From: a virus
Length of the DNA stretch: 64,000 bases
Virus record (IMG/VR): IMGVR_UViG_3300005099_000475
Location: 6,274-70,273 of that record
Reading direction: 5' to 3' (one strand)
Shown here: one piece after another, positions 15,605-62,442 of the stretch
How the letters are laid out: the number at the start of each line of letters is the position of its first letter
Numbering within the stretch: the first letter of the stretch is position 1
The notes under the pieces: model-generated
Told to the model about the DNA's origin: nothing
Database searches by the model: none
Seen by the model: the letters and a program-made list of their open reading frames with translations, nothing else
Translations under genes and position numbers: made by a program

Positions 15605-15804
15605 AATGATTTCTTGATTTCTCCCACCTTCGTGAAATTCTCATTCAACACCGAAACTTTCAATTGAAAGTCAAAAAAGGCTCGATCCAAACCGACCCTC
15701 TTGAACTCGTCGTCGATCAAACGATCGACTTTTTCGGCAAGGCCATCGAGAAATTCTTTTTCTTCCCTAAGCAATTGATTTGACATCACCCCAATACCTC
15801 CCAA
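15601..15804 (-). CDS. hypothetical phage protein
   Basis: ORF in operon. Confidence 0.5.
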   Translation of the reverse strand: MGGIGVMSNQLLREEKEFLDGLAEKVDRLIDDEFKRVGLDRAFFDFQLKVSVLNENFTKVGEIKKSF

Positions 15805-18118
15805 TTTTTATTTCCACATTTAAAGGAATCTTTTTCGTCCACTCGAAAGGTATGTCTAACATTGACATTTTCACATCCTCTATTCCTTTTTCAATTTTGT
15901 CGATCTCGCAATAAACGGCTATCTCATCATGCACCATCAGAGGAATCCAGTAACCCATTTTGTAAAGTTTTATCCAGGCCATTTGGGTACAATTCACCGC
16001 GGAAGATTGAATCGGAAAATTGATTATCTCGTTCCAGTTCATCGGACCGTATCTCCTTCTTCCGTCGAGAGATTCAACATAGCCTCGTTTCTCGTAAAGA
16101 GAAAACAACATTTTCTGCCACTGTTTCACTCCTTTATACATATCCAAAAGTTCCTTTCGAAATCTTTCCGCCTTTTCTTGCGGAATTCCCAAATTGAAAG
16201 AAACGGTTTTGGCTCCGGCACCATAAAACACCGGAAAAACGAAGCCGTTCTTCGTTTTGCTTCGCATTTCTTCGGCTTTGTCTTTGCCAAAGATTCTTTC
16301 GGACCATTCCAAATGAATGTCATGCCCATCCCAAATGTGTTTCAATAACAGTTCGTCTTCGGACGCAGCCCCCAAAACCATCACTTCGAGCTGTTTGTAA
16401 TCAGCATCTATTATCAAATGTCCTTCCGGGGCCATTATTAGATTTCTCATTTCCTTGAATTTCCTTTTGGGAAAATTTTGGACATTGGGAGAAGACGACG
16501 ACAACCTCGCGGTCCTCGTTCCCAACAAGTTGTAATTCGTATGGAACTTTCCGTCCGGATAAAGACATTCCTTGCTTCCTTTGACATAAGTGGACAACAT
16601 TTTGTTGATTCTTCTCAACTCCAAAAGCTTTTTACAAATCCAAACTTTGTCGGAAAGTTCCTTCAAAACCTCTTCGTCCAAAGACTTCTGATTTTTCGAA
16701 GTTCTCTTGGGCCAATTGGGAACGTCGAAATATCTTTCGATGAATGCGATAACTTGCTGAGGAGAGTTGATATTAAAAAAATGCTTCGCCGCTTCCCTCA
16801 ACGATTTCGAATCCCCTTTCTCGATTCCGAGCAAAACCTTTACCGAAGAAAGATACGAACTTCCGCACAAATCGACGAATTCCGATTGGAATTCTTTCAC
16901 CTGTTCGTTCTCATAAATCGAATCTATCAATTTTTTGGCTTCGTTCCTCAATTCCATTTCCTTCTTTTCCAAAAAATCTGTATTGACCACAATTCCTTTG
17001 ATTTGCGAATTGACGACTGCGGAAGGCAGTTCGACAAAATAATCATGATAATTCTTCCACAAATTCGAACCTGAATACAGCTTTTCCCAATAGTTGTACA
17101 ACCGCAAAGTGAAAATCGCGTCCTTGGCGTTGTGGACCAAAAGCTCAGACTCCGTAAAGTCCTTCTTTTTCCAATCGACTTTATAATATGGTTCACCTAA
17201 ATAAGCCCACGCAAGAAAATCGAGAGAATGAAATCCATGATTGGTTTTCAAAAAATGCGAAATCATCATCGTGTCCCTGTAATTTCTGACTTCGGAACAT
17301 TCGAAATAAACCTTTGCCCATTCGATTTCGAAAGAAGCGTTGTGAAATATCTTTTCGACGGAAGAATCTTCAAACAATCGCTTTATCTTTCCCTTCACCT
17401 CGGCCAACAAAACGAAAGATTTCGGCATGGGAAAAACCATAACATCTTTCTCATCCAAAGCAATCGCAATCGAAATCACCTTCCCGCCTAAATAAGGTCT
17501 CGTTTCATCTGTCTCCAAATCCAAAGCGATCCGTTTTCCTTTGATATTTAGATTCTCCAAGATTTCTTCTTCCTTCAAAATTTTTATTCTCGGTTTGCTG
17601 TATTTCGGGATTTCTTTCTTAACTAACGCTTTCGCCAACCCGATCGCCCTTCTAAAGAATATATCATAATTTTTGTTTCTCAAAACGAACGCAGGATGAT
17701 AAGCCGGAACTAACCACCTTCCATTGAAAGGAATAAAATATCCTTGGGCTTTCGAAAAATCGTTTCTCTGGGTTAATGCCTTATACGCCGTTTCTCCGCA
17801 AGTGATAATCACTTTAGGACTTCTTAAATTGATATCTTCCAAAACATGATGTTTGCAGACTTCGACCACTTCGTCGGGAATTTCGCTTCTCGGCGGAAAA
17901 TAACAATTGACGGCGTTCCAAAATCTGCAAAATTGAACCATGTCATTCAAACACTTCTTCAAAAGATTGCCGGACGGCCCAACGAACGGTTTTCCTCTTT
18001 TCACTTCTTCGTCCCCGGGGCACATCCCGACGACATAAATCAAAGGCTTTTCCGCTCCTGAAGCCTTTACGATTTTTTTATCGCCAATCGGACAATTCTC
18101 GCATCTTTCGCTTAGCAT
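15767..18118 (-). CDS. family A DNA polymerase with N-terminal family-4 uracil-DNA glycosylase-like domain and 3'-5' exonuclease
   Basis: UDG-like CxxC, GKPFVGPSG, YHPAFVLR; exonuclease DLET, HNASFE; polymerase RLSSSSPNVQN, DYKQLE, FYG, VHDE. Confidence 0.93.
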   Translation of the reverse strand: MLSERCENCPIGDKKIVKASGAEKPLIYVVGMCPGDEEVKRGKPFVGPSGNLLKKCLNDMVQFCRFWNAVNCYFPPRSEIPDEVVEVCKHHVLEDINLRSPKVIITCGETAYKALTQRNDFSKAQGYFIPFNGRWLVPAYHPAFVLRNKNYDIFFRRAIGLAKALVKKEIPKYSKPRIKILKEEEILENLNIKGKRIALDLETDETRPYLGGKVISIAIALDEKDVMVFPMPKSFVLLAEVKGKIKRLFEDSSVEKIFHNASFEIEWAKVYFECSEVRNYRDTMMISHFLKTNHGFHSLDFLAWAYLGEPYYKVDWKKKDFTESELLVHNAKDAIFTLRLYNYWEKLYSGSNLWKNYHDYFVELPSAVVNSQIKGIVVNTDFLEKKEMELRNEAKKLIDSIYENEQVKEFQSEFVDLCGSSYLSSVKVLLGIEKGDSKSLREAAKHFFNINSPQQVIAFIERYFDVPNWPKRTSKNQKSLDEEVLKELSDKVWICKKLLELRRINKMLSTYVKGSKECLYPDGKFHTNYNLLGTRTARLSSSSPNVQNFPKRKFKEMRNLIMAPEGHLIIDADYKQLEVMVLGAASEDELLLKHIWDGHDIHLEWSERIFGKDKAEEMRSKTKNGFVFPVFYGAGAKTVSFNLGIPQEKAERFRKELLDMYKGVKQWQKMLFSLYEKRGYVESLDGRRRYGPMNWNEIINFPIQSSAVNCTQMAWIKLYKMGYWIPLMVHDEIAVYCEIDKIEKGIEDVKMSMLDIPFEWTKKIPLNVEIKIGRYWGDVKSIA

Positions 18119-53643: not shown

Positions 53644-54981
53644 TTACGGCTTTATGTTGTAAACCAATGCGAGGACCTCTTTGTCTTCAAACGGGGAACC
53701 GAAAGCCATTCTGGTAGTGGCGACTACGATCTGCTGATCGGTCTCGATGTCGGCACCGGTCTTGATGGTGAGTTCCCTTCTGTTCCCCAGGTAGAACATT
53801 CCTTTGTGAACGATAATCAAAAGGGTTCTGTCCTGATTTGCTCCAGAGCTGTCGTCATAAACTCCGCTTTCGTTGAGGTCCTCCCTTACGTATTCGGATA
53901 CGATGATTGGAGATCCGGCAAGTTTTCCAAGCTCGCCATTCAAGATGGTGGCAGAAGATCCATACTTATCGACAGTGGTTACAACCCTATTTCCGGAGGC
54001 ATCTTTCAGATCGATGAGGTTTTTGAGATAACAAGTGATGGAAGTGACATAAACAAGATCATCGGGATTGAGGCCATACTTCTTCATTTTGGCCCTGGCT
54101 TCGACCACTTCTCCCCAAGTGAGGGCATTCCCTCCACCATCCACTTTGCAGGCGGAGAGACAAAGTTTCCTATATCCGTTCCAAGCCTTCCTTGCATCAT
54201 TGCTGGAAGTGACGTTGGCATCCATGTGATTTGCAGCAGTGTCGCCGTTGATGATGGCGTCTTCGATTGCAGAAGCCACGGCCTCGACGATTTTCTTCCT
54301 CACAACATTGATTATGGGAACGATTGAATCTTCATTCAATTCCTCACTGAACCTGACCCTTGTGGCGAGCTTTTTGGCCGAAAGAGTGAATGCTCCAGTA
54401 GAAGGGGAAGTAGCAGGAATCTTGTCGCTTGCTTGACCAGTATCGGATTGGGATTCAGGAACCAAATAAGCTTTCGCGTCGGCATAAGTGATGGGGAACT
54501 TGTACACAGAATCGGGCATAGGTATTATCTCGTGTATGGCAGCCACTTTCAAAGCGGCTTTGATTTCCTCGAACATTCTGGGGGAATAACCGACAGGAAC
54601 GAAATCGCCGCCATGTCCAGCCGCTTCGTAAAGGGCTTTCATTTCCTCCGGATAAAAGTCCTTGTAATACTGGTAAAGCTTCGTCTCGTTGGGATTCACA
54701 TTGAGAATTTGGCTGCAAAGAACGAGATTGTCATTTATCTCCTGAATCCTGTCTTCGAATTCGTCGATCGCCTTTCTTTTTAGGATGTTGGGGTGAACAA
54801 TCTTGGTATCACTCTGTGGAAGTGTCTTTCTCTCGGCTTCGAGTTTCTCGAGTTTGGACTGAATTTCCTGAATTGCCTTTTCGAGAACTTCCTGCTTCTC
54901 GCTTGAAGAATCAGCTTTCTCCTTCAAAGCGGTAATGGCATCGTGAAGTTCTTTCTTAAGTTCTTCCAAACTGTGACCCAT
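53644..54981 (-). CDS. HK97-fold major capsid protein
   Basis: N-terminal coiled-coil delta domain, GGDFVP, FSEELNEDS, AIINGD. Confidence 0.92.
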   Translation of the reverse strand: MGHSLEELKKELHDAITALKEKADSSSEKQEVLEKAIQEIQSKLEKLEAERKTLPQSDTKIVHPNILKRKAIDEFEDRIQEINDNLVLCSQILNVNPNETKLYQYYKDFYPEEMKALYEAAGHGGDFVPVGYSPRMFEEIKAALKVAAIHEIIPMPDSVYKFPITYADAKAYLVPESQSDTGQASDKIPATSPSTGAFTLSAKKLATRVRFSEELNEDSIVPIINVVRKKIVEAVASAIEDAIINGDTAANHMDANVTSSNDARKAWNGYRKLCLSACKVDGGGNALTWGEVVEARAKMKKYGLNPDDLVYVTSITCYLKNLIDLKDASGNRVVTTVDKYGSSATILNGELGKLAGSPIIVSEYVREDLNESGVYDDSSGANQDRTLLIIVHKGMFYLGNRRELTIKTGADIETDQQIVVATTRMAFGSPFEDKEVLALVYNIKP

Positions 54982-54993
54982 TTTCTTTCCTCC

Positions 54994-56133
54994 TTAAGAC
55001 TTGACTATTTCGATTAGTTCTTTGAGGAAGCTCTTTACTTCCTCTTCGGACTCGGCCTCTTTATCCTTCTGAGACCGGAATTCGGAAATTGTTTTTTCAA
55101 TGGACTCAATTTTGCTGAAATATTCGTTCAGTTTTTTCTGCATTTCAGCAAACTTCTCATTCCAAAGCTCGATGTCGTTGTCCATCAATTCGATCAGCTC
55201 AAATGGGAAGAATGTTTCGTCTTTGCGATTCCAAGGGGCCTCCTCGCCCATTTTTCTGTAATAAATCTCGACTTTCTTCATCACGCCCGGTCTGTCTTTT
55301 TCGGGAATTTTGACTCCTCTTCTCCCACCTTGAAGAACAACCGCAACTGCGAAAATAGCTCTTGGAATGGCGTACACTTTCCCGTTAATTACATCGCAGA
55401 AAAGAAGTTTATATGAGGTAAACTGATCCGGCGCATTTTCGTCATACCAGAAATGGACGCTTTGATATTTTTTCCAATCCATCTTATCCGGATCACCGGA
55501 ACCATCGCTCGAAGCCCACTTCCGAATTCTCGCATCGGCAGCGCGATCATCCCATGATCGACGCCTGTCGGCCAACGGCCAAGTGGTTTTTCCAGAAACT
55601 TTTTTCTCCTCCATGTTTTGTTCCTCCTCGGTCAAAGGCTTCACAGCAATCGATTTTCCGTCGAATTCAAAGACGGCTTCCTGACAAGCGGGAACGTCAA
55701 CCAAAGAAACTTCGAGCAAATCAAGATTTTTTATTATTCTTATTTCCTTGTCATCCTTGTCTTCGTATTCGGTTTCCAACGGAATGAAACCAATCGAGAA
55801 AAACCTGAGGACGTCCTCTTTTACCATTCGACGAGCTTTATCCGCCTCGTCGAATCCTTTAGCTATCGATGCTTCGACCCAAACTCCATCTGATTGAATT
55901 TCAAGGGTCTCAAGACGCCCAATAGGAAACGAATGATTCAATCTCAAAGAAGGAGCGAGTTTCGGATTTTCCCTAAATCTTTTCACCGATTCGAGAAAAG
56001 CGGTCGGAAGAACGATATCGTTTACCCTGTCGACAATCGCTTTCGAAGCCCAGCCCTTAACAATAAATTTGTCTCCCCTTTCTTCATAAGATTTAACTTC
56101 GTACGATTTAAGCAGTCCTTTTTTCTTTTCCAT
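54994..56133 (-). CDS. HK97-family prohead protease with C-terminal extra domain
   Basis: DRVNDIV, NH..PIG, FSIGF, LLEVSLVDVPA. Confidence 0.92.
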   Translation of the reverse strand: MEKKKGLLKSYEVKSYEERGDKFIVKGWASKAIVDRVNDIVLPTAFLESVKRFRENPKLAPSLRLNHSFPIGRLETLEIQSDGVWVEASIAKGFDEADKARRMVKEDVLRFFSIGFIPLETEYEDKDDKEIRIIKNLDLLEVSLVDVPACQEAVFEFDGKSIAVKPLTEEEQNMEEKKVSGKTTWPLADRRRSWDDRAADARIRKWASSDGSGDPDKMDWKKYQSVHFWYDENAPDQFTSYKLLFCDVINGKVYAIPRAIFAVAVVLQGGRRGVKIPEKDRPGVMKKVEIYYRKMGEEAPWNRKDETFFPFELIELMDNDIELWNEKFAEMQKKLNEYFSKIESIEKTISEFRSQKDKEAESEEEVKSFLKELIEIVKS

Positions 56134-56872
56134 TAGACGACTCCTTAACGGCAAAAATCACCGTTTTGCCCGCAAAAACATAATCTTTCGCTTCGACTTT
56201 TGGCAAAAGCTCAAAAGGCTTGTTTTGAGGAACAATTAACAAGCCGTAACTTCCCCAACAAACGAATTGCATTCTTTGTCCTTGATGAAAGACGTCCCCT
56301 TCGCGACAAAAATCCAGCAAGGCGTCGACGTCTTTGTCGGCGACCGAAACCACAACGACATCCAATCCGTTCAAAAAGTCATATATTTCATAAATCTTCG
56401 TCTCGTTCCGATAAGCGAATTTGAAACTGTCCGCTTCGATCTTATTTTTCAGAAGTCCCGCTTCAGCAGCTATCATAGAATCGTTGGCCGTGAGAAGAGA
56501 TGGAAGCCAATCTATTCTTCTTAAATATCCAGTAACTGGAAACCGCCCCAAATGAACCGAAAAAGCAGTAAGAAAGATTCCGCAAACATAACATTTACAT
56601 TGAAGTTCTCTATCGAGAATTTCATTTATAGTGTATTTTCCACCCTTAACATCGAACATATCTTCTGTCGGGTCATAAAGTCCAATGTGAGTTACAATTC
56701 CATCAAAAGGAGCGTATATCCAATTAGGTTTTTGATAAGCGACCCTAATTGGCATTCGATTAAACCAAACTTCAACGAATTCTCTTGTGGAAACAGAATT
56801 CAGCTTCTTAAAATCTTCAGTTTTCTTCCACTCAGATATAGTTAAAGGTTCCCAAAAGTTTTTACTTACCAT
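56108..56872 (-). CDS. phosphatidylserine decarboxylase-family pyruvoyl enzyme (no obvious TM anchor)
   Basis: WFNRMPIR, YAPFDG, IFLTAFSVHLGRFPVTG, RNE and QGQRM..VCWGS (G-S self-cleavage site). Confidence 0.82.
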   Translation of the reverse strand: MVSKNFWEPLTISEWKKTEDFKKLNSVSTREFVEVWFNRMPIRVAYQKPNWIYAPFDGIVTHIGLYDPTEDMFDVKGGKYTINEILDRELQCKCYVCGIFLTAFSVHLGRFPVTGYLRRIDWLPSLLTANDSMIAAEAGLLKNKIEADSFKFAYRNETKIYEIYDFLNGLDVVVVSVADKDVDALLDFCREGDVFHQGQRMQFVCWGSYGLLIVPQNKPFELLPKVEAKDYVFAGKTVIFAVKESSNGKEKRTA

Positions 56873-58889
56873 ATTTAGACCATTCCTTCATTGGGAGTCT
56901 ATCTATATAGTTCAGTCTCGATGCCACGCAGCTCAACGCAGCCCCGAATAAATAGAACTGAGAAACATCAAATAAAATTAAATCATATCCGTTTTCGGCA
57001 GAAATTTCTTCAAGAACATCAATCTTTTTTCTCTCTATTTTCCACTCTTCAGAATTAGGCTCAAACAATTCTATATAAGTTCCAGCTAAAATCTTATAAC
57101 CTACTGGTATATTGTTTGTTATACAAAACTCGCCTAACGCAGCATCTTCTATAGGAATTATCTCAGCAAATCTTTCAAGTTCTTTAAGAGCTTTTTTATC
57201 TGCGGAAGGAATAACCACCATTACTTTGGTGGGGGAAATGGGACAAAATATGGTGTCCCCGTGATAAGAATTTGAACTGATGCAAACACACCCATTCCTT
57301 CGAACTACTAACAAATGATATTTGGGAACAGAAACATCATAAAATTCTTCATTAGATACTCTCTCAACTTCGAGATTCTCCCTAACACAACCAGTGCAGT
57401 AAGTTTTGTTATAATCAATATCAACTACATATTCCTCAAGGTTTCCTAAATAGTTTATACTATTAATTCTAAATACTTTTCTTACTTTGGAACGAAGTCC
57501 ACATTTGACACATAGTTCCTGAACATCATCTGCTAATTGTTTTGAACAAGTATAATAAGTCATTGTGTAACAGTTATACTCTTTTTTCCTTCGATAATCG
57601 AACTTCCTTATTCTCTTATCACCATCACCTTTAACCAAAATCTCAACAAACTCCCTTATAGTCTCTGAAGATGATAGCTTAATGAATAAAGGAACTCTCT
57701 TCGAACGTGAAGTTTTACCACAATTCGAAACAACAAATTCAGCAAAAGAATGTGAATAAATTATGATTCCCTTCTCATTTAAAGAATAACTTAATCCTAA
57801 ACGACTTACCAATTCTTGAATTTCATTCAAATTATTTTTATCATACTGAGAAATGAAAATTGAATCTTGTCCACAAGAACCTTCAGAAATATACCAAGCT
57901 AATAAACGAACAATGTCTTTATAATCAAATTTCTTTCCAGCAATTTCTATTTCTTTTGGGTCTTCAACATCAAAATCTCCAGCACAAAGAAATGATATAT
58001 ATTGTGAGCTTCCAATTCTAAAATTCTTGGCTTTGATAAACTTGAAAGAACTAAGTCCTTTTCTCGGATCGGCAGAACGAAAAACATAATGGTCAGCAGT
58101 TACTCGCAAATCCATCCTCTTGCCATTGAAATGATAAACATCACCAGAATAGTTAATCTTTATCAGCTTTATAGGTTTTTGATATTCAATATTACCTGTT
58201 TCAGGATTAAAGGTTGCAACTAAATCATCTTCAGAAAGTTGCCAGAAAAATTTCCAACCATCTAAAGTTAAGATTTCTGTTTTTGAATCATAACAAATTT
58301 CTGACTCTCTTCCAAGTTTTATTAACCTACAATCGAACTTTTCTGCTATCCAATCAAGAGCTTCGGGAGACGTTCTTTCACCGTAAGAACAAATATAAAT
58401 ATTATCATACAAATATTTCATACAGGGTTCGCCCTCGAAAGTCCATTCGGGATTAGGAGGACGGTATGTCTTATATCCCATTTCATTTAAGAACCATTCG
58501 GCCAAATCTGATTCGGGTTCCCTTCCTTCGGCCTTGAAACTCGAAATTATACACGTCGGTTCGTCAACGTGCGGCAAATAAACGAACGAATTGACCCATA
58601 CCAAATCCTGCAGCAATGGATTCGGAGGAAGAGTAAGAACCAAGGCTTCCATCGAAAGAATTCTAACAACATTCATCCATTGAGCCACAAGTTCGTCCAC
58701 ATTAAGAAGTTTTCTTTGTTCTTCCGTTAATTCTTGCATGTAAACGTTGTTCTCCACGCTAATTCCCTGAATTATCGGAGGACAGACAACGAAAACGGGA
58801 ACGTCCAAATCGGACGGGGTTCTCAATCTGTCTTCAACTTTTATGTCTTCCAAAGCTTTTCTATCAAAAACAAAATCTTCCATTTTCAT
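56862..58889 (-). CDS. amidinotransferase/arginine deiminase (pentein) superfamily enzyme containing an intein
   Basis: VCPP, QW, QDLVW, REPE, FEGE, YGERTS, YHGDT and GAALSC (catalytic Cys). Confidence 0.85.
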   Translation of the reverse strand: MKMEDFVFDRKALEDIKVEDRLRTPSDLDVPVFVVCPPIIQGISVENNVYMQELTEEQRKLLNVDELVAQWMNVVRILSMEALVLTLPPNPLLQDLVWVNSFVYLPHVDEPTCIISSFKAEGREPESDLAEWFLNEMGYKTYRPPNPEWTFEGEPCMKYLYDNIYICSYGERTSPEALDWIAEKFDCRLIKLGRESEICYDSKTEILTLDGWKFFWQLSEDDLVATFNPETGNIEYQKPIKLIKINYSGDVYHFNGKRMDLRVTADHYVFRSADPRKGLSSFKFIKAKNFRIGSSQYISFLCAGDFDVEDPKEIEIAGKKFDYKDIVRLLAWYISEGSCGQDSIFISQYDKNNLNEIQELVSRLGLSYSLNEKGIIIYSHSFAEFVVSNCGKTSRSKRVPLFIKLSSSETIREFVEILVKGDGDKRIRKFDYRRKKEYNCYTMTYYTCSKQLADDVQELCVKCGLRSKVRKVFRINSINYLGNLEEYVVDIDYNKTYCTGCVRENLEVERVSNEEFYDVSVPKYHLLVVRRNGCVCISSNSYHGDTIFCPISPTKVMVVIPSADKKALKELERFAEIIPIEDAALGEFCITNNIPVGYKILAGTYIELFEPNSEEWKIERKKIDVLEEISAENGYDLILFDVSQFYLFGAALSCVASRLNYIDRLPMKEWSKYGK
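57270..58295 (-). mobile_element. intein (342 aa) with LAGLIDADG-type homing endonuclease
   Basis: Starts CYDSKTEILT; block B VTADH; LLAWYISEGS and FVEILVKGDG; YDVSV; ends ISSN before a +1 Ser. Confidence 0.9.
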
Positions 58890-60937
58890 TTTACCTTTAA
58901 CCAGCAACGGCAATTTATTCGCAATTCAGGAGGTAATTTTATATCTCCCGGGCAATCAGCCTTATATCCACCAACATCAAACTTTTCATTTATGTCTATT
59001 GTTACTCCATGTAAGGCTAAATGTTCTGGCCTAACCTTCTCATCACCCATAGTCATCCAAGTTTTTTTAGTTTTTCCTTTCTGTTTTGCAGTTTCTAAAA
59101 TCGTTTTATTAACCAAATAAGTGGCTTCAGTTTGAGCTAATTTTTCTATTCTCTCTCCTGAAACTGAATCTACTAATTTTCTGTATGTTTCATTAATAGC
59201 CTGTTCAGCGGGCATTCCCCTTTCGATGTTCTTTCTTATTCCTTCGGCCAACTGAATCAGAGTTGTTCTGTCCACAACCTCAAAAAGCTCTTTTGTCCAA
59301 GATTCGGCTAAATCATAAAAATCTTCAGGGGTCAATCTCGAGACTTCACCAAACCGCTTGGCCAAAGAATAATGTAATGCAAATATAAATTTAGAAATTA
59401 AAGTCCCATATTCTTCTTTTTTCTTTTCCCTAAATTCTTTCAATGAATCTTCAGCAATTGCTATCAATTCTTCATCAGAAGCTAAAGGATGGTCATACAA
59501 AAATTCATTGAGTTCTTTTACCAAATAATTCTTTTGGTTGTCGAACAATTCCGTTAGTTTAGTCACCAAATAAACGGCGGTCATCGAATGCAAAAAATCG
59601 AAATCGCTTTCATCAAAAGCTTTAAACTCCTTGGTCGGTCCTTCTGGTGGACTTTCAGGAGCTTCAGAAGCTGGTGGCCTTCCGCCGGGATTTTCTGGTT
59701 TTCTGCCGGAATCAACGGGCATCATGTTAAGAGGCATCATATAAACATCGCCGCCTTCACGGGGAGGCAGATTCATAATTGCTCTTGCTTCATTGAGGGA
59801 AAGAACTCCATTTTGAATAAGCATTATCAATCTTCTGGTTTTGTTGAATCTGTTGGTTTCGAGAGCTTCGATTTTTTCCGTATTGACCGCGACATAAACT
59901 TTTCTTCCGCCAAAACGGGACAAAATTTGCTCATTGAATGCATCGAAGAATCTATCCAATAAAGGAAGAACTGTGTCTTCCCAAAATACCCTTCTTTCTA
60001 TTTCTATAGTAGCCCTGTTTCCCGCTTCCCTTATTCCGAGAACACCGGGAGGAACTTGGTAAATCGCAAGAATATCTTCCCTTGTGAGCCGTTTTATTTC
60101 CATTATGGCAGCATCTCTAAGAGGAACCTGAACTTCTTTAAATTTCAATCCGCCTTCAAGGATGGGAACTTCGTAAGCACGATCGATTCCAGTATAAGCC
60201 TCCTTCCAACGCTTCTTTATTCTTTCGTAAACGGCGTCCGTAAGAACCTGATCAGTTTCCAAAACGCCACCGAGAGTTCCACCTTTTTCGAAAAACCTTT
60301 CAACGTGCTGATCACAATATTTAAGTATTTTTCCAGTCTTCAAAGCACATTCCAACGGAGACAAACCAAGAAAATCGTCCGTCGGATTGAAAAGCTTTAT
60401 ATGAAAAATTCTTCTCGGATTCAATTGAACCGATTTGGGATTTTGAGCGTATTCCCAAGCTGTTAATTCACCGTTTCTAATTATGGGTTTCATTCTGTGG
60501 GATTGAAGAGGGTAGATGGCCTCCGGTTTGCCTGTTTCGGGAGCGACTTCAGCAAAGAAATTGCCGTTCAACAAAATATTGACACAATAAGATTCCAACA
60601 AATCGCCAAGGGTTCCCACCCCTTTCGGATTCAAAACGAACTTCGCGACTTGATTGTCCAAAGGAATTAATTTTTTGTTTCCGTCTTCGTCGTATCGAAA
60701 TATATCGACGGTAACAGTTCTCGCCGCCTTCGCAATAGCATGAACAGCAGCATAAATCCAAAGAATCTGTTGATAAGCCTTGGATTTTCCTTCCGAACCG
60801 AAAAGTAAGAATTTCGGGTCTTCGAAGATGTCGACGGAACTTACATCGAGCCAAAATCCCTTTTCGTTCTTGACGACGAATTTCGGTTCGGATTTTGTTT
60901 TTTCTTCTTTCTTAAATATCTTCGAAAATAATCCCAT
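58886..60937 (-). CDS. HK97-family portal protein fused to a MuF/SPP1 gp7-like minor head domain
   Basis: LLNGN, GLSPL, ILEGG, LSLNEARA; C-terminal WMTMGDEKVRPEH...INCRC. Confidence 0.92.
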   Translation of the reverse strand: MGLFSKIFKKEEKTKSEPKFVVKNEKGFWLDVSSVDIFEDPKFLLFGSEGKSKAYQQILWIYAAVHAIAKAARTVTVDIFRYDEDGNKKLIPLDNQVAKFVLNPKGVGTLGDLLESYCVNILLNGNFFAEVAPETGKPEAIYPLQSHRMKPIIRNGELTAWEYAQNPKSVQLNPRRIFHIKLFNPTDDFLGLSPLECALKTGKILKYCDQHVERFFEKGGTLGGVLETDQVLTDAVYERIKKRWKEAYTGIDRAYEVPILEGGLKFKEVQVPLRDAAIMEIKRLTREDILAIYQVPPGVLGIREAGNRATIEIERRVFWEDTVLPLLDRFFDAFNEQILSRFGGRKVYVAVNTEKIEALETNRFNKTRRLIMLIQNGVLSLNEARAIMNLPPREGGDVYMMPLNMMPVDSGRKPENPGGRPPASEAPESPPEGPTKEFKAFDESDFDFLHSMTAVYLVTKLTELFDNQKNYLVKELNEFLYDHPLASDEELIAIAEDSLKEFREKKKEEYGTLISKFIFALHYSLAKRFGEVSRLTPEDFYDLAESWTKELFEVVDRTTLIQLAEGIRKNIERGMPAEQAINETYRKLVDSVSGERIEKLAQTEATYLVNKTILETAKQKGKTKKTWMTMGDEKVRPEHLALHGVTIDINEKFDVGGYKADCPGDIKLPPELRINCRCWLKVK

Positions 60938-62442
60938 TAGTGCAAGAACAGCCTTTCTTTTTCTTCTTTATCGAATCTCATTATTCTTATCGAAGGTTGA
61001 CGATAACCTTCTCCAGTTGCTTTTCTGTAAGCTTCGCGAGCGAAGAAACACGCCATGACCGTGTCAGAGAAGGTCGAAGATTCGTAATTCTCCAATTCCT
61101 TCAACCAAACACAAAGCCCACAATTACATCCTTTTCCGTGAGAAGAATTGTCTGGAATGGCCCATAATGCTTTCTTGAACTCCAAAGAAAGGGACGGTAG
61201 GCCCACATTTTCGTCGAATTTCTGACTTCCCGTGTAATAACCTTCGATGGGAAGATCGTATCTTCCCATCTCGGAAATCCATTCTATAAGAGCTTCTTGA
61301 TAACCATTGTTCTCGACCAAAATCAACTGATGCTTATATTTGTCGTATTCCTGACAAATGAGTTTGGCGGTCAACGGCGAAGAAAATCTTCCGACGACGA
61401 TTGAAACCGGAATTCTTATTTTTTCCGGCGTCACCGCAATGGTGAAAATACACGTTCGGGGATTCGATTTCTTTTGTTTGATTCCCAAATCGACGCCCAT
61501 AAAGAACTGCCAATCCTTTTTCGTTTCCCCATATTTGAGAAGGGGATCTTTGCAAGCGTCAATACTTTCTTTAGTAAACAAAGCGGTTTCCACAGAAGTT
61601 ATCTTCCCTTGAAAACCGCGAGCGAAAGCGACTGGACCGACTTTTTCCCTGTGCTTTTTAAGGCTTTCGGTCGGCCACCTTTCCGGCCAAACGGGATTTA
61701 ACTCCTCGTCTATCACCTTTATGTACACATAATATTGATCGGTTTGCTTTATCAGCTCCATCGACAAATCTTCGGCGGTCCAAGGGGTAAAAATGTAAAC
61801 GAAAGGATTGTCTCCCAAGATATTCATCCAATTTTCGTAAAACGCTTGCTTGATGGCCTTTTGTCTCGACGGATACACCAAAGAGTTAGTGAAAGAAACA
61901 ACATCGTCAAAAATGATCAAATCCGCCCTTGCGCCGGTCACAGCGGAGAGAATCCCTTTGCCTTCGAGCGACGGATCAGTCGTAATTATGTCTCTCTTTA
62001 TGAACAAAGTCGATTGATTCCAAAGCCCCCTTTCGGCCGGTTTCAAATCGGGAAAAAGTTCGTGAAGTCGAGGATTCATTTCGATATGTTTTTGAATCGC
62101 CATTACCCTTTTGTGGGCGGTTTCGTCGGATTCACAAACGATCTTGACGAGCAAGTTGGGGTTGTTTCCCAATTCCCAAAGAACCCTTCCGATGGTCAAT
62201 TGCTGAGTCTTGCCGTGAAATCGAGGGGCGAAAATAATTGCTCCCAATTTCGCTTCTTCGGGGGAAATGAGTCCGGCTTTCGCCGATTCGTGTTCTTTTT
62301 TGACTTTGTCTATAAGCTTATGCCAAGCTTTATGAATGTCGGCAGGCGGGAGATAATCTTTATTATAGGAAAGGATGTAATCGACTCCCAACCAAGAAAC
62401 CTTTCTCGCGGTTTCCAAAAATTTTTTCTTAATTGAATTCAC
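60937..62442 (-). CDS. terminase large subunit
   Basis: APRFHGKT, TGARADLIIFDD, MGVDLG, VENNGYQ, DTVMA. Confidence 0.93.
   Translation of the reverse strand: MNSIKKKFLETARKVSWLGVDYILSYNKDYLPPADIHKAWHKLIDKVKKEHESAKAGLISPEEAKLGAIIFAPRFHGKTQQLTIGRVLWELGNNPNLLVKIVCESDETAHKRVMAIQKHIEMNPRLHELFPDLKPAERGLWNQSTLFIKRDIITTDPSLEGKGILSAVTGARADLIIFDDVVSFTNSLVYPSRQKAIKQAFYENWMNILGDNPFVYIFTPWTAEDLSMELIKQTDQYYVYIKVIDEELNPVWPERWPTESLKKHREKVGPVAFARGFQGKITSVETALFTKESIDACKDPLLKYGETKKDWQFFMGVDLGIKQKKSNPRTCIFTIAVTPEKIRIPVSIVVGRFSSPLTAKLICQEYDKYKHQLILVENNGYQEALIEWISEMGRYDLPIEGYYTGSQKFDENVGLPSLSLEFKKALWAIPDNSSHGKGCNCGLCVWLKELENYESSTFSDTVMACFFAREAYRKATGEGYRQPSIRIMRFDKEEKERLFLH

What the first reader, a model, noticed from the sequence alone, without database searches (positions are those of the whole stretch)
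56108..58889. Amidinotransferase plus soluble PSD-type decarboxylase cassette wedged between portal and prohead protease
Seen: two metabolic enzymes overlap the portal gene, each other and the protease gene, so they interrupt the usual portal-protease-capsid order and should be co-expressed with head proteins. Both keep catalytic motifs (pentein YHGD and LSC; PSD VH and WG-S). The PSD has no evident membrane anchor. Established: penteins act on arginine/guanidino groups, including dihydrolases that yield ornithine. PSD-fold enzymes can act on free amino acids (fungal PsiD). Polyamines neutralise packaged phage DNA. Inference: this is a two-step route I do not recognise as described. It could run Arg to ornithine to putrescine (or via agmatine) to supply capsid counter-ions. 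Alternatively it could convert a seryl group to ethanolamine and then to a guanidinoethyl group on DNA, virion protein or lipid.
Basis: partly seen in the sequence, partly recalled or inferred. Interest (0 to 1): 0.9.

Follow-up and report, generated by a model that had tools for sequence, protein, structure and literature searches.

The report
Phage arginine-hydrolase plus soluble decarboxylase cassette
Two overlapping enzyme genes in this phage's head-gene block form a fixed pair found in many phages, and they most likely turn arginine into the DNA-binding polyamine putrescine by a route not yet described for viruses.

Summary
Between portal (58886-60937) and prohead protease (54994-56133) lie two overlapping minus-strand genes. 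The first is a pentein split by a 342-aa LAGLIDADG intein (56862-58889). The second is a 254-aa PSD-family protein (56108-56872) that lacks the membrane helices of E. coli PSD.

"Amidinotransferase" is imprecise. By sequence profile and by fold, the nearest solved relatives are the cyanobacterial arginine dihydrolases ArgZ/AgrE, then DDAH. Both phage enzymes score far below the cut-offs of every curated family.

New here: the pair is a widespread phage cassette.
- In 78 of 80 IMG/VR loci, a PSD-like gene follows the pentein on the same strand; the other 2 loci end at the contig edge.
- In several lineages the pair sits beside head or packaging genes.
- Cultured Bacteroides phage DAC20 carries it unannotated; Campylobacter Fletcherviruses carry both genes, about 43 kb apart in NCTC12673.
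- Some phages add an agmatine-deiminase-like third gene.
- A complex model passes its controls (0.81 against 0.22).

Best reading (confidence 0.4): a two-step route from arginine to putrescine, expressed late. The order of the steps and the substrates are inferred, not shown. The route is a new variant of virus-encoded polyamine synthesis and is testable in cultured phages.

The parts
58886..60937 (-). Portal protein fused to a Mu F-like minor head domain; its stop codon overlaps the start of the pentein gene
   Evidence: PF04860 E 9e-64 and PF04233 E 7e-15; phrog_2662 portal E 1e-86; junction read
56862..58889 (-). Pentein (guanidino-group-modifying enzyme) gene, 675 aa from ATG 58889, interrupted by an intein; exteins 198 + 135 aa
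   Evidence: Intein-less homologues at 56-67% identity. Their profile hits ArgZ/AgrE at E 2.5e-18. Foldseek top hit ArgZ at E 7e-17. All family-wide invariant residues are kept in the window copy.
58296..58889 (-). N-extein of the pentein (CPP, NN-x-x-M, LQD, LPH, FxAEGR, FEG and GERT motifs)
57270..58295 (-). Intein of 342 aa with a LAGLIDADG homing-endonuclease domain. It starts with Cys, has a T-x-x-H block, and ends in Asn followed by Ser. It sits directly before the catalytic YH-x-D motif.
   Evidence: PF14528 E 4e-8 / 9e-9. Homologues without the insert align across it. Boundaries.
56862..57269 (-). C-extein of the pentein (S-YHGD with the catalytic His/Asp, GAALSC with the catalytic Cys)
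56108..56872 (-). Soluble PSD-family (pyruvoyl-type) decarboxylase, 254 aa; overlaps the pentein gene by 11 nt and the protease gene by about 25 nt
   Evidence: PF02666 E 1.6e-20. AF2 model pLDDT 81.7. Foldseek hits E. coli PSD, PsiD and Ao-ADC1. No counterpart of E. coli PSD residues 1-45. No hydrophobic segment.
56249..56254 (-). Codons for Gly207-Ser208, the predicted self-cleavage site where Ser would become the pyruvoyl group (W-G-S-Y)
   Evidence: G-S is invariant in 11 and 15 family members, as are Asp57 (E. coli D90) and His107 (E. coli H144). Roles of D90 and H144 from PMC7952604. Cleavage itself was not tested.
54994..56133 (-). Prohead serine protease (S78) with a C-terminal extension; likely start ATG 56133 behind AAGGAG
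   Evidence: PF04586 E 2e-14; phrog_80 E 1e-24; junction read
53644..54981 (-). Major capsid protein (HK97 type)
   Evidence: PF05065 E 2e-14; phrog_10 E 1e-31
60937..62442 (-). Terminase large subunit
   Evidence: phrog_38 E 4e-55

Best explanation
The two genes form a conserved, translationally coupled phage cassette. An ArgZ/DDAH-like cysteine hydrolase of guanidino groups (a pentein) and a soluble PSD-fold pyruvoyl decarboxylase probably work as a physical complex on free arginine. Together they give a diamine. The most likely route is arginine to ornithine (the dihydrolase step, releasing CO2 and 2 NH3), then ornithine to putrescine (the decarboxylase step).

In this phage the pair is transcribed with the portal, protease and capsid genes. 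The product would therefore appear while heads are filled, supplying polyamine for DNA condensation and for late replication and translation.

Shown:
- The folds and the conserved catalytic residues.
- The strict pairing and the recurring head or packaging context.
- A phage-only PSD branch.
- A complex model that passes its controls.

Inferred:
- The substrates and the order of the two steps.
- Self-cleavage of the decarboxylase and splicing of the intein.
- The purpose of the product.
For: Pentein chemistry:
- A profile of 7 intein-less homologues hits ArgZ (Sll1336) at E 2.5e-18 and AgrE (Alr4995) at 8e-18, against DDAH at 0.11.
- The AF2 model's best Foldseek hits are ArgZ/AgrE (E 7e-17 to 4e-14, target TM 0.80). 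DDAH (5e-10), amidinotransferases, agmatine deiminase and ADI rank lower.
- The best NCBIfam models are arginine dihydrolase, bifunctional ArgZ and dimethylargininase.
- The Cys, His and Asp residues are invariant in 19 family members, the window copy included.
- So are an Asn that aligns with ArgZ Asn71 and two Arg that by position match the carboxylate-binding Arg of DDAH. The roles of these residues are recalled, except that PDB titles name N71S and C264S.
- Two independent inteins sit in two different active-site motifs of this gene family (window: before YHxD; L029: after LQD). This is typical of genes that a phage needs intact.

Decarboxylase:
- It belongs to the PSD family.
- The D90, H144 and G-S equivalents are invariant. 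H144 is the key residue for cleavage and catalysis in E. coli PSD (PMC7952604).
- The membrane helices are absent.
- PSD-fold decarboxylases of free arginine (Ao-ADC1) and tryptophan (PsiD) exist, and both appear among the fold hits.
- The 17 phage PSDs are separated from 16 cellular PSDs by a branch with 100/99 support.

Coupling:
- A PSD-like gene lies directly downstream of the pentein on the same strand in 78 of 80 IMG/VR loci. The other 2 end 63 and 82 nt after the pentein.
- The same holds in 13 of 17 metagenome loci.
- The gap is about 0 in most loci.
- The predicted complex scores 0.81 (runs 0.81, 0.69, 0.82) against a best control of 0.22. That mark was reached by 58 of 80 solved complexes and 2 of 110 mismatched pairs. 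Runs agree in at least 86% of contacts, and partner pLDDT is at least 86.

Timing and context:
- Portal-pair-protease occurs in the window and in L027, L028 and L031.
- A Mu-type portal precedes the pair in L033, L034, L038 and L041.
- The major head protein precedes the pair and PhoH follows it in 65 and 61 of the 80 IMG/VR loci.
- In L035, TerL precedes the pair.
- In L036, the pair precedes TerL and portal.

Precedent: viruses and phages encode polyamine enzymes, including pyruvoyl ODC and ADC of another fold (PMC9992855; abstract, section 5 and term searches read).
Against: - No activity data exist.
- Scores are far below curated family cut-offs: arginine dihydrolase 70 bits against 450, and the best PSD equivalog 55 bits against 183. 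Neither enzyme can be called an orthologue.
- The window's own exteins give no Pfam pentein hit.
- Only one of five AF2 pentein models was confident (mean pLDDT 76, against 40-55 for the others).
- Foldseek ranks E. coli PSD (2e-5) above PsiD (1e-4) and Ao-ADC1 (2e-3), so the fold does not favour an amino-acid substrate.
- An agmatine-deiminase-like third gene sits in 5 of 80 and 2 of 17 loci. This points to agmatine and leaves the order of steps open.
- The 70-kb record, estimated 61% complete, has no spermidine synthase, CN-hydrolase or PAD_porph gene.
- The pair is not always beside head genes. In DAC20 it lies among ligase, helicase and IMPDH/GMP-reductase-like genes. In NCTC12673 (Fletchervirus) the two genes are about 43 kb apart.
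- The 80 IMG/VR loci are not de-replicated, and 65 belong to one lineage.
Confidence: 0.4

Rival explanations
1. Same end product, opposite order. The PSD-fold enzyme is an arginine decarboxylase that makes agmatine. The pentein then removes the guanidino carbon from agmatine, giving N-carbamoylputrescine or, as a dihydrolase, putrescine directly.
For: - A PSD-family arginine decarboxylase is known (Ao-ADC1; PMC12904898; fold hit 9jer).
- Some cassettes add an agmatine-deiminase-like (PAD_porph) gene next to or between the two genes.
- One ArgZ arginine (chain position matching R84, 'SRF') is Asn, Ser or Lys in the phage family.
Against: - Two invariant Arg that by position match the alpha-carboxylate binders of DDAH are kept (roles recalled). 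This fits an alpha-amino-acid substrate for the pentein.
- In 83 of the 85 complete three-gene-free loci the gene order is pentein first. This is weak evidence.
- No agmatine dihydrolase is known.
Confidence: 0.2
2. The pair makes or attaches an unusual guanidino or amine group instead of plain putrescine. One form is true amidino transfer onto the decarboxylase product. Another is modification of DNA, virion protein or lipid during head assembly. This covers the reader's second idea.
For: - The pentein fold also matches amidinotransferases (SxtG 2e-9, HsvA 3e-8, AGAT 3e-7).
- The pair sits among structural and packaging genes in several lineages.
- Cultured carriers include Fletcherviruses, whose DNA is known to be unusual (dG replaced by dI; abstract listing of PMC13091555). 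DAC20 has an IMPDH/GMP-reductase-like gene nearby.
Against: - Amidinotransferases rank far below ArgZ and DDAH.
- The Asn matching ArgZ Asn71 is conserved.
- No thymidylate-synthase-like gene is in the record.
- No transferase or kinase travels with the pair among the conserved neighbours.
Confidence: 0.15
3. Host takeover by arginine destruction, or by ammonia/CO2 release and proton consumption. The aim would be to drain arginine or shift pH, not to make a polyamine.
For: - The combined reaction would consume arginine and protons and release NH3 (chemistry of ArgZ-type and decarboxylase reactions, established knowledge).
- The cassette is mobile among unrelated phages and is flanked by homing endonucleases, like other morons.
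Against: - A decarboxylase partner is not needed to destroy arginine, yet the pairing is near-absolute.
- Late, head-module expression is an odd time for takeover.
Confidence: 0.1
4. Two unrelated auxiliary genes. The PSD makes phosphatidylethanolamine from phosphatidylserine (membrane remodelling), and the pentein does something independent.
For: - Pfam and record annotations call it phosphatidylserine decarboxylase.
- E. coli PSD is the top fold hit.
- An ocean survey of auxiliary metabolic genes treats viral psd and GATM as separate lipid and creatine genes (PMC11360552, passages read).
Against: - The membrane-binding helices are absent.
- The protein scores far below every PSD equivalog cut-off.
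- The phage PSDs form a separate branch from cellular PSDs.
- The pairing with the pentein is strict, and the complex model passes its controls.
Confidence: 0.05

Closest known systems
ArgZ (Sll1336) / AgrE (Alr4995), cyanobacterial arginine dihydrolases (PDB 6juy, 6jv0, 6lrf)
   Same: - Best sequence-profile and fold match.
- Shares the CPP...N-x-W/F-M, D, N (Asn71 position), E-G, G-x-R, H-x-D and S-C motifs.
   Different: - About 20% identity, and 70 bits against the curated cut-off of 450.
- No ornithine cyclodeaminase domain.
- Extra LPH and FxAEGR motifs.
- Close relatives of the window copy carry an N-terminal zinc ribbon, which is absent in the window copy.
- It is phage-borne and paired with a decarboxylase.
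Dimethylarginine dimethylaminohydrolase (DDAH)
   Same: - Same fold (Foldseek E 5e-10).
- Pfam DDAH_eukar is the only Pfam pentein model that any close homologue passes (2 of 7).
   Different: Much weaker than ArgZ by profile (E 0.11). Methylarginines are not an obvious phage substrate.
Ao-ADC1 of Aspergillus oryzae (PSD-family pyruvoyl arginine decarboxylase, PDB 9JER) and PsiD (tryptophan decarboxylase)
   Same: PSD fold, soluble, acting on free amino acids, with self-cleavage at Gly-Ser (PMC12904898). Both are among the fold hits.
   Different: - They are fungal and 350-480 aa with N-terminal helical regions.
- Identity is 13-16%.
- They rank below E. coli PSD.
- The substrate of the phage enzyme is unknown.
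E. coli phosphatidylserine decarboxylase (PDB 6l06, 7cnw)
   Same: Top sequence and fold hit for the PSD gene. The D90, H144 and G-S equivalents are kept.
   Different: - The three amphipathic membrane helices (residues 1-45) are absent.
- H147 is replaced by an invariant Arg.
- The cleavage site reads WGSY, not LGST (the LGST motif is named in PMC7952604).
Virus-encoded polyamine synthesis (PBCV-1 ADC/AIH/NCPAH; phage AdoMetDC-derived pyruvoyl ODC and ADC; giant-virus arginase+ODC), Li et al. 2023, PMC9992855
   Same: The same proposed outcome: a virus making putrescine from arginine or ornithine, including pyruvoyl enzymes.
   Different: - Both steps use different enzyme families.
- The main text of that survey has no mention of phosphatidylserine, dihydrolase or amidinotransferase.
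- It reports no AIH outside chloroviruses and no arginase in phage. Its supplements were not seen.
Annotated genes of cultured phages: Campylobacter Fletchervirus 'amidinotransferase' and 'phosphatidylserine decarboxylase' (e.g. NCTC12673 gp044, gp085); Bacteroides phage DAC20_242/243 ('hypothetical')
   Same: Same two families (39% and 27% identity to metagenome and window members). The phage PSDs fall on the same branch.
   Different: In NCTC12673 (Fletchervirus) the genes are about 43 kb apart. In DAC20 the pair lies in a replication region. None has a tested function.

Membership tests
Pentein / guanidino-group-modifying enzyme superfamily | Five-fold beta-beta-alpha-beta propeller fold | tested here: met
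   The AF2 model of intein-less homologue P0006 gives 129 PDB hits at E <= 0.001. The hits listed (one search shows the top ~50 ranks) are all penteins: ArgZ, DDAH, amidinotransferases, AguA and ADI. Only one of five models was confident.
Pentein / guanidino-group-modifying enzyme superfamily | Catalytic Cys near the C-terminus plus a His and acidic residues | tested here: met
   GA-x-x-SC, (Y/F)H-x-D and LQD are invariant in 19 members, the window copy included. They align to ArgZ C264, H168 and D65 by chain offset.
Arginine dihydrolase (NCBIfam NF052232 / ArgZ NF052231) | Score above the curated equivalog cut-off | tested here: not met
   70 bits against 450, and 64 against 1025
Arginine dihydrolase (ArgZ type) | Asn at the ArgZ Asn71 position (the PDB title links N71S to a trapped intermediate) | tested here: met
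   The Asn is invariant in A4 and in the 19-member alignment. In distant members it reads N-A-G, as in ArgZ. Its mechanistic role is recalled; the paper is not held.
Arginine dihydrolase (ArgZ type) | Converts arginine to ornithine + CO2 + 2 NH3 | not testable with these tools
   Needs an enzyme assay
Amidinotransferase (AGAT, StrB1, SxtG type) | Closest similarity to known amidinotransferases | tested here: not met
   Foldseek E 2e-9 to 6e-7 with 10-12% identity, well below ArgZ and DDAH. The only Pfam ADI/amidinotransferase-type hit is E 0.018 in 1 of 7 homologues.
DDAH (PF19420) | Pfam gathering score | tested here: inconclusive
   2 of 7 intein-less homologues pass (30.3 and 26.1 bits against 23), 2 fall below, and 3 have no hit. 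The window exteins give no hit.
PSD family (PF02666) | Pfam gathering score and PSD fold | tested here: met
   74 bits against 22. Fold hits are E. coli PSD, PsiD and Ao-ADC1.
PSD family, pyruvoyl enzymes | Gly-Ser cleavage site with the His and Asp that drive self-cleavage | tested here: met
   G207-S208, H107 (= E. coli H144) and D57 (= D90) are invariant. Roles from PMC7952604. Actual cleavage is not testable here.
Housekeeping phosphatidylserine / archaetidylserine decarboxylase | Score above an NCBIfam equivalog cut-off | tested here: not met
   Best is 55 bits against 183; all 13 models fall far below their cut-offs. The phage PSDs form a branch apart from 16 cellular PSDs, with 100/99 support.
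Housekeeping phosphatidylserine decarboxylase | N-terminal amphipathic membrane-association helices | tested here: not met
   The alignment begins at E. coli residue 49. The helices span residues 1-45. No hydrophobic segment is present.
Intein with LAGLIDADG homing endonuclease | N-terminal Cys, T-x-x-H block, C-terminal Asn followed by Ser/Cys/Thr, endonuclease domain, and an insert absent from orthologues | tested here: met
   The penultimate residue is Ser, not the usual His. Splicing was not tested.

The most novel reading that the evidence does not exclude
The pentein and the PSD-fold enzyme form a dedicated complex that acts during head assembly, not on the free amino-acid pool. It would build or attach an unusual amine or guanidino group to packaged DNA or to a virion component. 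That would be a new pyruvoyl/pentein-based virion or DNA modification pathway, shared by hundreds of phages including Fletcherviruses and Bacteroides DAC phages.
Probability: 0.1. Interest if true: 0.85.

Novelty: new variant of a known kind. Interest (0 to 1): 0.62.

Why it matters
- If the pair makes putrescine from arginine, it is a third, unrelated enzymatic solution for virus-encoded polyamine supply. It would also imply two enzyme activities not yet described in phages: an ArgZ-like dihydrolase and a PSD-fold amino-acid decarboxylase.
- The cassette is common. At least 154 IMG/VR contigs encode the pentein, and 78 of the 80 examined carry the pair.
- Surveys currently annotate the genes as 'hypothetical', 'amidinotransferase' or 'phosphatidylserine decarboxylase', so they file the two genes under creatine and lipid metabolism.
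- Its repeated placement beside head and packaging genes gives a concrete handle on an old question: where the polyamines that neutralise packaged phage DNA come from.
- Cultured carriers make it directly testable: Bacteroides phages DAC19-23 on B. thetaiotaomicron.

Tried and rejected
- Pfam on the window's exteins alone gave nothing. I did not splice the exteins and used natural intein-less homologues instead.
- The first IMG/VR scans with close alignments found only 1 and 3 loci. A 32-member alignment was too diverse to scan with. A 9-member alignment worked.
- The genome-contig scan with the PSD alignment returned 19 loci at 22-32% identity. They hold ordinary cellular PSDs, plus one short fragment (L006). 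None has a pentein beside it. No pentein-PSD fusion was found; two long ORFs in high-GC MAGs (L008, L012) carry no pentein part.
- I examined the cellular pentein homologues (L037 and L039, Balneolaceae-type) for a clue to function. Their partner gene, c37, has no Pfam, NCBIfam or PDB match and is unrelated to either cassette protein. Only a weak ATP-grasp lead came from the ESM Atlas.
- I considered DNA hypermodification. No thymidylate-synthase-like gene is in the record. The replication genes look ordinary.
- I looked for other polyamine genes in the record. None was found for PAD_porph, CN_hydrolase or spermidine synthase. The record is only 61% complete.
- The closest cultured phage by TerL is under 28% identical, so the host stays unknown. 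No tRNA was found.
- The ArgZ and AgrE structure papers are not held. Residue roles for ArgZ and DDAH are therefore recalled, apart from what the PDB titles state.
- Literature searches for a prior description of the pair turned up none in the listings or the passages I read. Supplements of PMC9992855 and PMC11360552, which list viral homologues, were closed and may bear on this.
- I did not try sequencing-run or read-mapping tools.

Full report
WHAT IS THERE

The window is part of a 70-kb IMG/VR record labelled provirus. Its content is that of a phage with its own replication genes: PolA with an N-terminal UDG domain, a DnaB-like helicase, NrdD with its activase, SbcCD-like proteins, RecA-like and gp32-like proteins, and dUTPase.

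On the minus strand the head module reads as follows:
- TerL, 60937-62442.
- Portal fused to a Mu F domain, 58886-60937.
- A long ORF, 56862-58889.
- A 254-aa ORF, 56108-56872.
- An S78 prohead protease, 54994-56133.
- An HK97-type capsid protein, 53644-54981.

The junctions were read directly. The portal stop and the next start share ATGA. The second and third genes overlap by 11 nt. The PSD gene ends inside the protease gene, whose ATG follows an AAGGAG.

THE FIRST ENZYME

The long ORF contains a 342-aa intein with a LAGLIDADG endonuclease domain (window 57270-58295). Its exteins alone match no Pfam family.

A search for shorter proteins found 8 hits among 122 candidates. Seven are full-length intein-less homologues of 346-364 aa at 56-67% identity.
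- Pfam places 4 of the 7 weakly in DDAH_eukar, 2 of them above the cut-off, and 1 weakly in ADI.
- A profile of the seven hits the solved arginine dihydrolases ArgZ (E 2.5e-18) and AgrE (8e-18). DDAH reaches only 0.11.
- An AF2 model (pLDDT 76; the other four models were poor, 40-55) matches ArgZ/AgrE best by Foldseek (E 7e-17, target TM 0.80). DDAH, amidinotransferases, agmatine deiminase and arginine deiminase rank lower.
- NCBIfam ranks arginine dihydrolase, bifunctional ArgZ and dimethylargininase first, but at 60-70 bits against cut-offs of 300-1025.

The protein is therefore a divergent pentein nearest to ArgZ. It is not an orthologue of ArgZ, and it is not specifically an amidinotransferase.

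In a 19-member alignment that includes the window copy, these motifs are invariant: CPP, NN-x-x-M, LQD, an Asn, L-x-H, F-x-A-x-GR-x-x-E, the E of the FEG motif (Gly in 18 of 19), G-x-R, H-x-D and GA-x-x-SC.
- Using the chain offset fixed by the PDB titles (N71S, C264S), these align with ArgZ D65, N71, R90, E118, R139, H168, D170 and C264.
- The mechanistic roles of these residues are from my recollection of the ArgZ and DDAH literature. The two ArgZ/AgrE papers are not held.

The window copy lacks the N-terminal zinc ribbon of its close relatives and has SSF where they have SNF.

A second family member (L029) carries a related intein at a different site, just after LQD. Several 590-942-aa representatives suggest further inteins. 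Two intein insertions in two active-site motifs argue that the enzyme is functional and important to these phages.

THE SECOND ENZYME

The 254-aa protein is a clear PSD-family member (PF02666, E 1.6e-20).

Catalytic residues:
- Nine relatives (52-60% identity) and more distant ones keep Asp57, His107, Arg110 and Gly207-Ser208.
- The alignment to E. coli PSD equates these with D90, H144, H147 and the G-S cleavage site.
- Passages of PMC7952604 state that H144 is absolutely conserved and drives both self-cleavage and catalysis. They also state that H147 is dispensable and that D90 and D142 back each other up.
- The catalytic set is therefore intact.

Solubility:
- The same paper defines the membrane-binding helices as residues 1-45.
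- The phage protein aligns only from E. coli residue 49 and has no hydrophobic segment.
- A soluble enzyme is therefore likely.

Fold and family placement:
- The AF2 model (pLDDT 81.7) matches E. coli PSD (2e-5), PsiD (1e-4) and the A. oryzae arginine decarboxylase Ao-ADC1 (2e-3). All are PSD-fold enzymes, and the ranking does not reveal the substrate.
- All NCBIfam PSD equivalogs are missed by a wide margin (55 bits against 183 at best).
- In a tree, 17 phage PSDs are split from 16 cellular PSDs by a branch with 100/99 support. I left out two over-long ORFs, and the cellular set came from one pattern scan.

THE PAIR IS A CASSETTE

Co-occurrence:
- Of 17 metagenome loci with a pentein relative, 13 have the PSD-like gene directly downstream. 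Two end at the contig edge. Two (L037, L039) lack it; these look cellular (Balneolaceae-type annotation, ABC-F and signal peptidase neighbours).
- A broader IMG/VR scan found 154 contigs with a pentein relative, and the best 80 were kept.
- In 78 of those 80, a PSD-like gene follows on the same strand. It is the next gene in 76, usually with no gap. The other two loci end 63 and 82 nt after the pentein.
- The loci are not de-replicated, and 65 of them share one synteny.
- The full representative library holds 162 pentein relatives at E <= 1e-30 and 860 at E <= 1e-10. Most carry no name.

Context:
- Window type: portal-pair-protease (also L027, L028, L031).
- A Mu-type portal directly upstream (L033, L034, L038, L041).
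- The large lineage: protease, an unknown 386-aa protein, major head protein, pair, PhoH, then adaptor and tail-fibre genes.
- TerL upstream (L035), or the pair followed by TerL and portal (L036).
- Other settings exist. One is after lectin-like tail genes (L002). Another is behind a glycosyltransferase (L049).

A third gene, a PAD_porph/agmatine-deiminase-like pentein, follows or splits the pair. It occurs in 5 of the 80 loci and in L032 and L036.

Homing or HNH endonucleases flank the cassette in L002, DAC20 and NCTC12673. This fits a mobile module.

Cultured carriers:
- 40 Campylobacter phage records (Fletchervirus, e.g. NCTC12673) carry the pentein, and 37 Campylobacter records carry the PSD-like gene. 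They are annotated amidinotransferase and phosphatidylserine decarboxylase, and lie about 43 kb apart in NCTC12673.
- Six Bacteroides phages have the pentein. DAC20 was checked and has the adjacent pair, annotated hypothetical. It lies in a region with ligase, helicase and an IMPDH/GMP-reductase-like gene.
- This rests.

Do they bind? A complex model of the pair from one contig scores 0.81 (runs 0.81, 0.69, 0.82) against a best control of 0.22.
- That mark was reached by 58 of 80 solved complexes and 2 of 110 mismatched pairs.
- The runs agree in at least 86% of contacts, and partner pLDDT is at least 86.
- My own alignments were used, so the calibration holds only roughly.
- I know of no solved pentein-PSD complex, so a pass from memory seems unlikely.
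- This supports binding but does not show it.

HOW IT MOST LIKELY WORKS

Both enzymes look catalytically competent. Both families act on the arginine family of small molecules. They are near-obligately paired and probably bound.

The simplest chemistry has two steps:
- Arginine to ornithine by an ArgZ-type dihydrolase.
- Ornithine to putrescine by a pyruvoyl decarboxylase.

The reverse order, arginine to agmatine to putrescine, is the main rival. It is favoured by the known PSD-fold arginine decarboxylase and by the agmatine-deiminase-like third gene.

Late co-expression with head genes suggests a need at the time of DNA packaging. That polyamines neutralise packaged DNA is established knowledge, not tested here.

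I put 0.4 on the ornithine route and 0.2 on the agmatine route. The rest falls on amidino transfer or macromolecule modification (0.15), arginine depletion (0.1) and an ordinary lipid PSD role (0.05).

COMPARISON AND NOVELTY

Virus-encoded polyamine synthesis is known. The systematic survey PMC9992855 describes PLP ODC, AdoMetDC-derived pyruvoyl ODC and ADC, arginase, and the chlorovirus ADC/AIH/NCPAH route.
- I read its abstract and section 5 and ran term searches on the main text.
- The main text does not mention phosphatidylserine, dihydrolase or amidinotransferase.
- It reports no AIH outside chloroviruses and no arginase in phage. Its supplements were not seen.

An ocean survey of auxiliary metabolic genes lists viral psd and GATM separately, under lipid and creatine metabolism (PMC11360552, passages read).

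Six further searches gave no description of the pair in the listings I saw.

I therefore rate it a new variant of a known kind, of moderate to high interest. It is widespread, mis-annotated or unannotated, mechanistically distinct and testable in cultured systems. Its function remains unproven.

Noticed in passing
L029:278-2347 (metagenome locus), compared with window 56862-58889: A 63%-identical pentein carries a related intein at a different site (after the LQD motif) from the window's intein (before YHxD). An otherwise near-identical copy (L028) has none. Representatives of 590-942 aa (P0020, P0021, P0075, P0123, P0143) suggest more intein-bearing forms.
   Followed up: partly
L123:9799-11319 (DAC20), L124:5722-7176 (NCTC12673 gp084), L002:10942-12135: Homing or HNH endonuclease genes lie directly beside the cassette or its PSD gene in three unrelated phages. 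This may explain its spread between lineages and its split in Fletcherviruses.
   Followed up: no
L123:11895-12869 (Bacteroides phage DAC20) and Fletchervirus records: DAC20 has an IMPDH/GMP-reductase-domain gene about 3 kb from the pair. Fletcherviruses, which carry both cassette genes, replace dG by dI (abstract listing of PMC13091555). Any link between the cassette and purine or DNA chemistry is untested.
   Followed up: no
L032:9107-9973, L036:9732-10661, L042-L044, L049, L117: A third pentein of the PAD_porph/agmatine-deiminase type (ends in GGL-x-NC-x-TW) joins the pair in some phages. It sits after the PSD gene or between the two genes. The PSDs of the first group form their own clade in the tree.
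   Followed up: partly
L037:7062-8858 and L039:2573-4378: Cellular (Balneolaceae-type) relatives of the phage pentein lack the PSD partner. Instead they follow a 300-aa protein of unknown family. The only lead is a weak ATP-grasp/RimK-like likeness in the ESM Atlas.
   Followed up: partly
window 15767-18118 (-): The family A DNA polymerase has a uracil-DNA-glycosylase-superfamily domain fused at its N-terminus (residues 22-150), ahead of the 3'-5' exonuclease domain.
   Followed up: no
window 56001-60000: G+C is 0.36-0.38 over the cassette and intein, against 0.45 (54-56 kb) and 0.42 (60-62 kb) in the flanking head genes. This is compatible with later acquisition, but other parts of the window are equally low.
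   Followed up: no
L006:40-1271 (1.8-kb contig binned in a Methylococcaceae MAG): This was the only non-housekeeping PSD hit in the genome collection. It falls on the phage branch next to L049 and L117, so it is probably a phage fragment. Its upstream ORF is not a pentein of the ArgZ-like type.
   Followed up: partly
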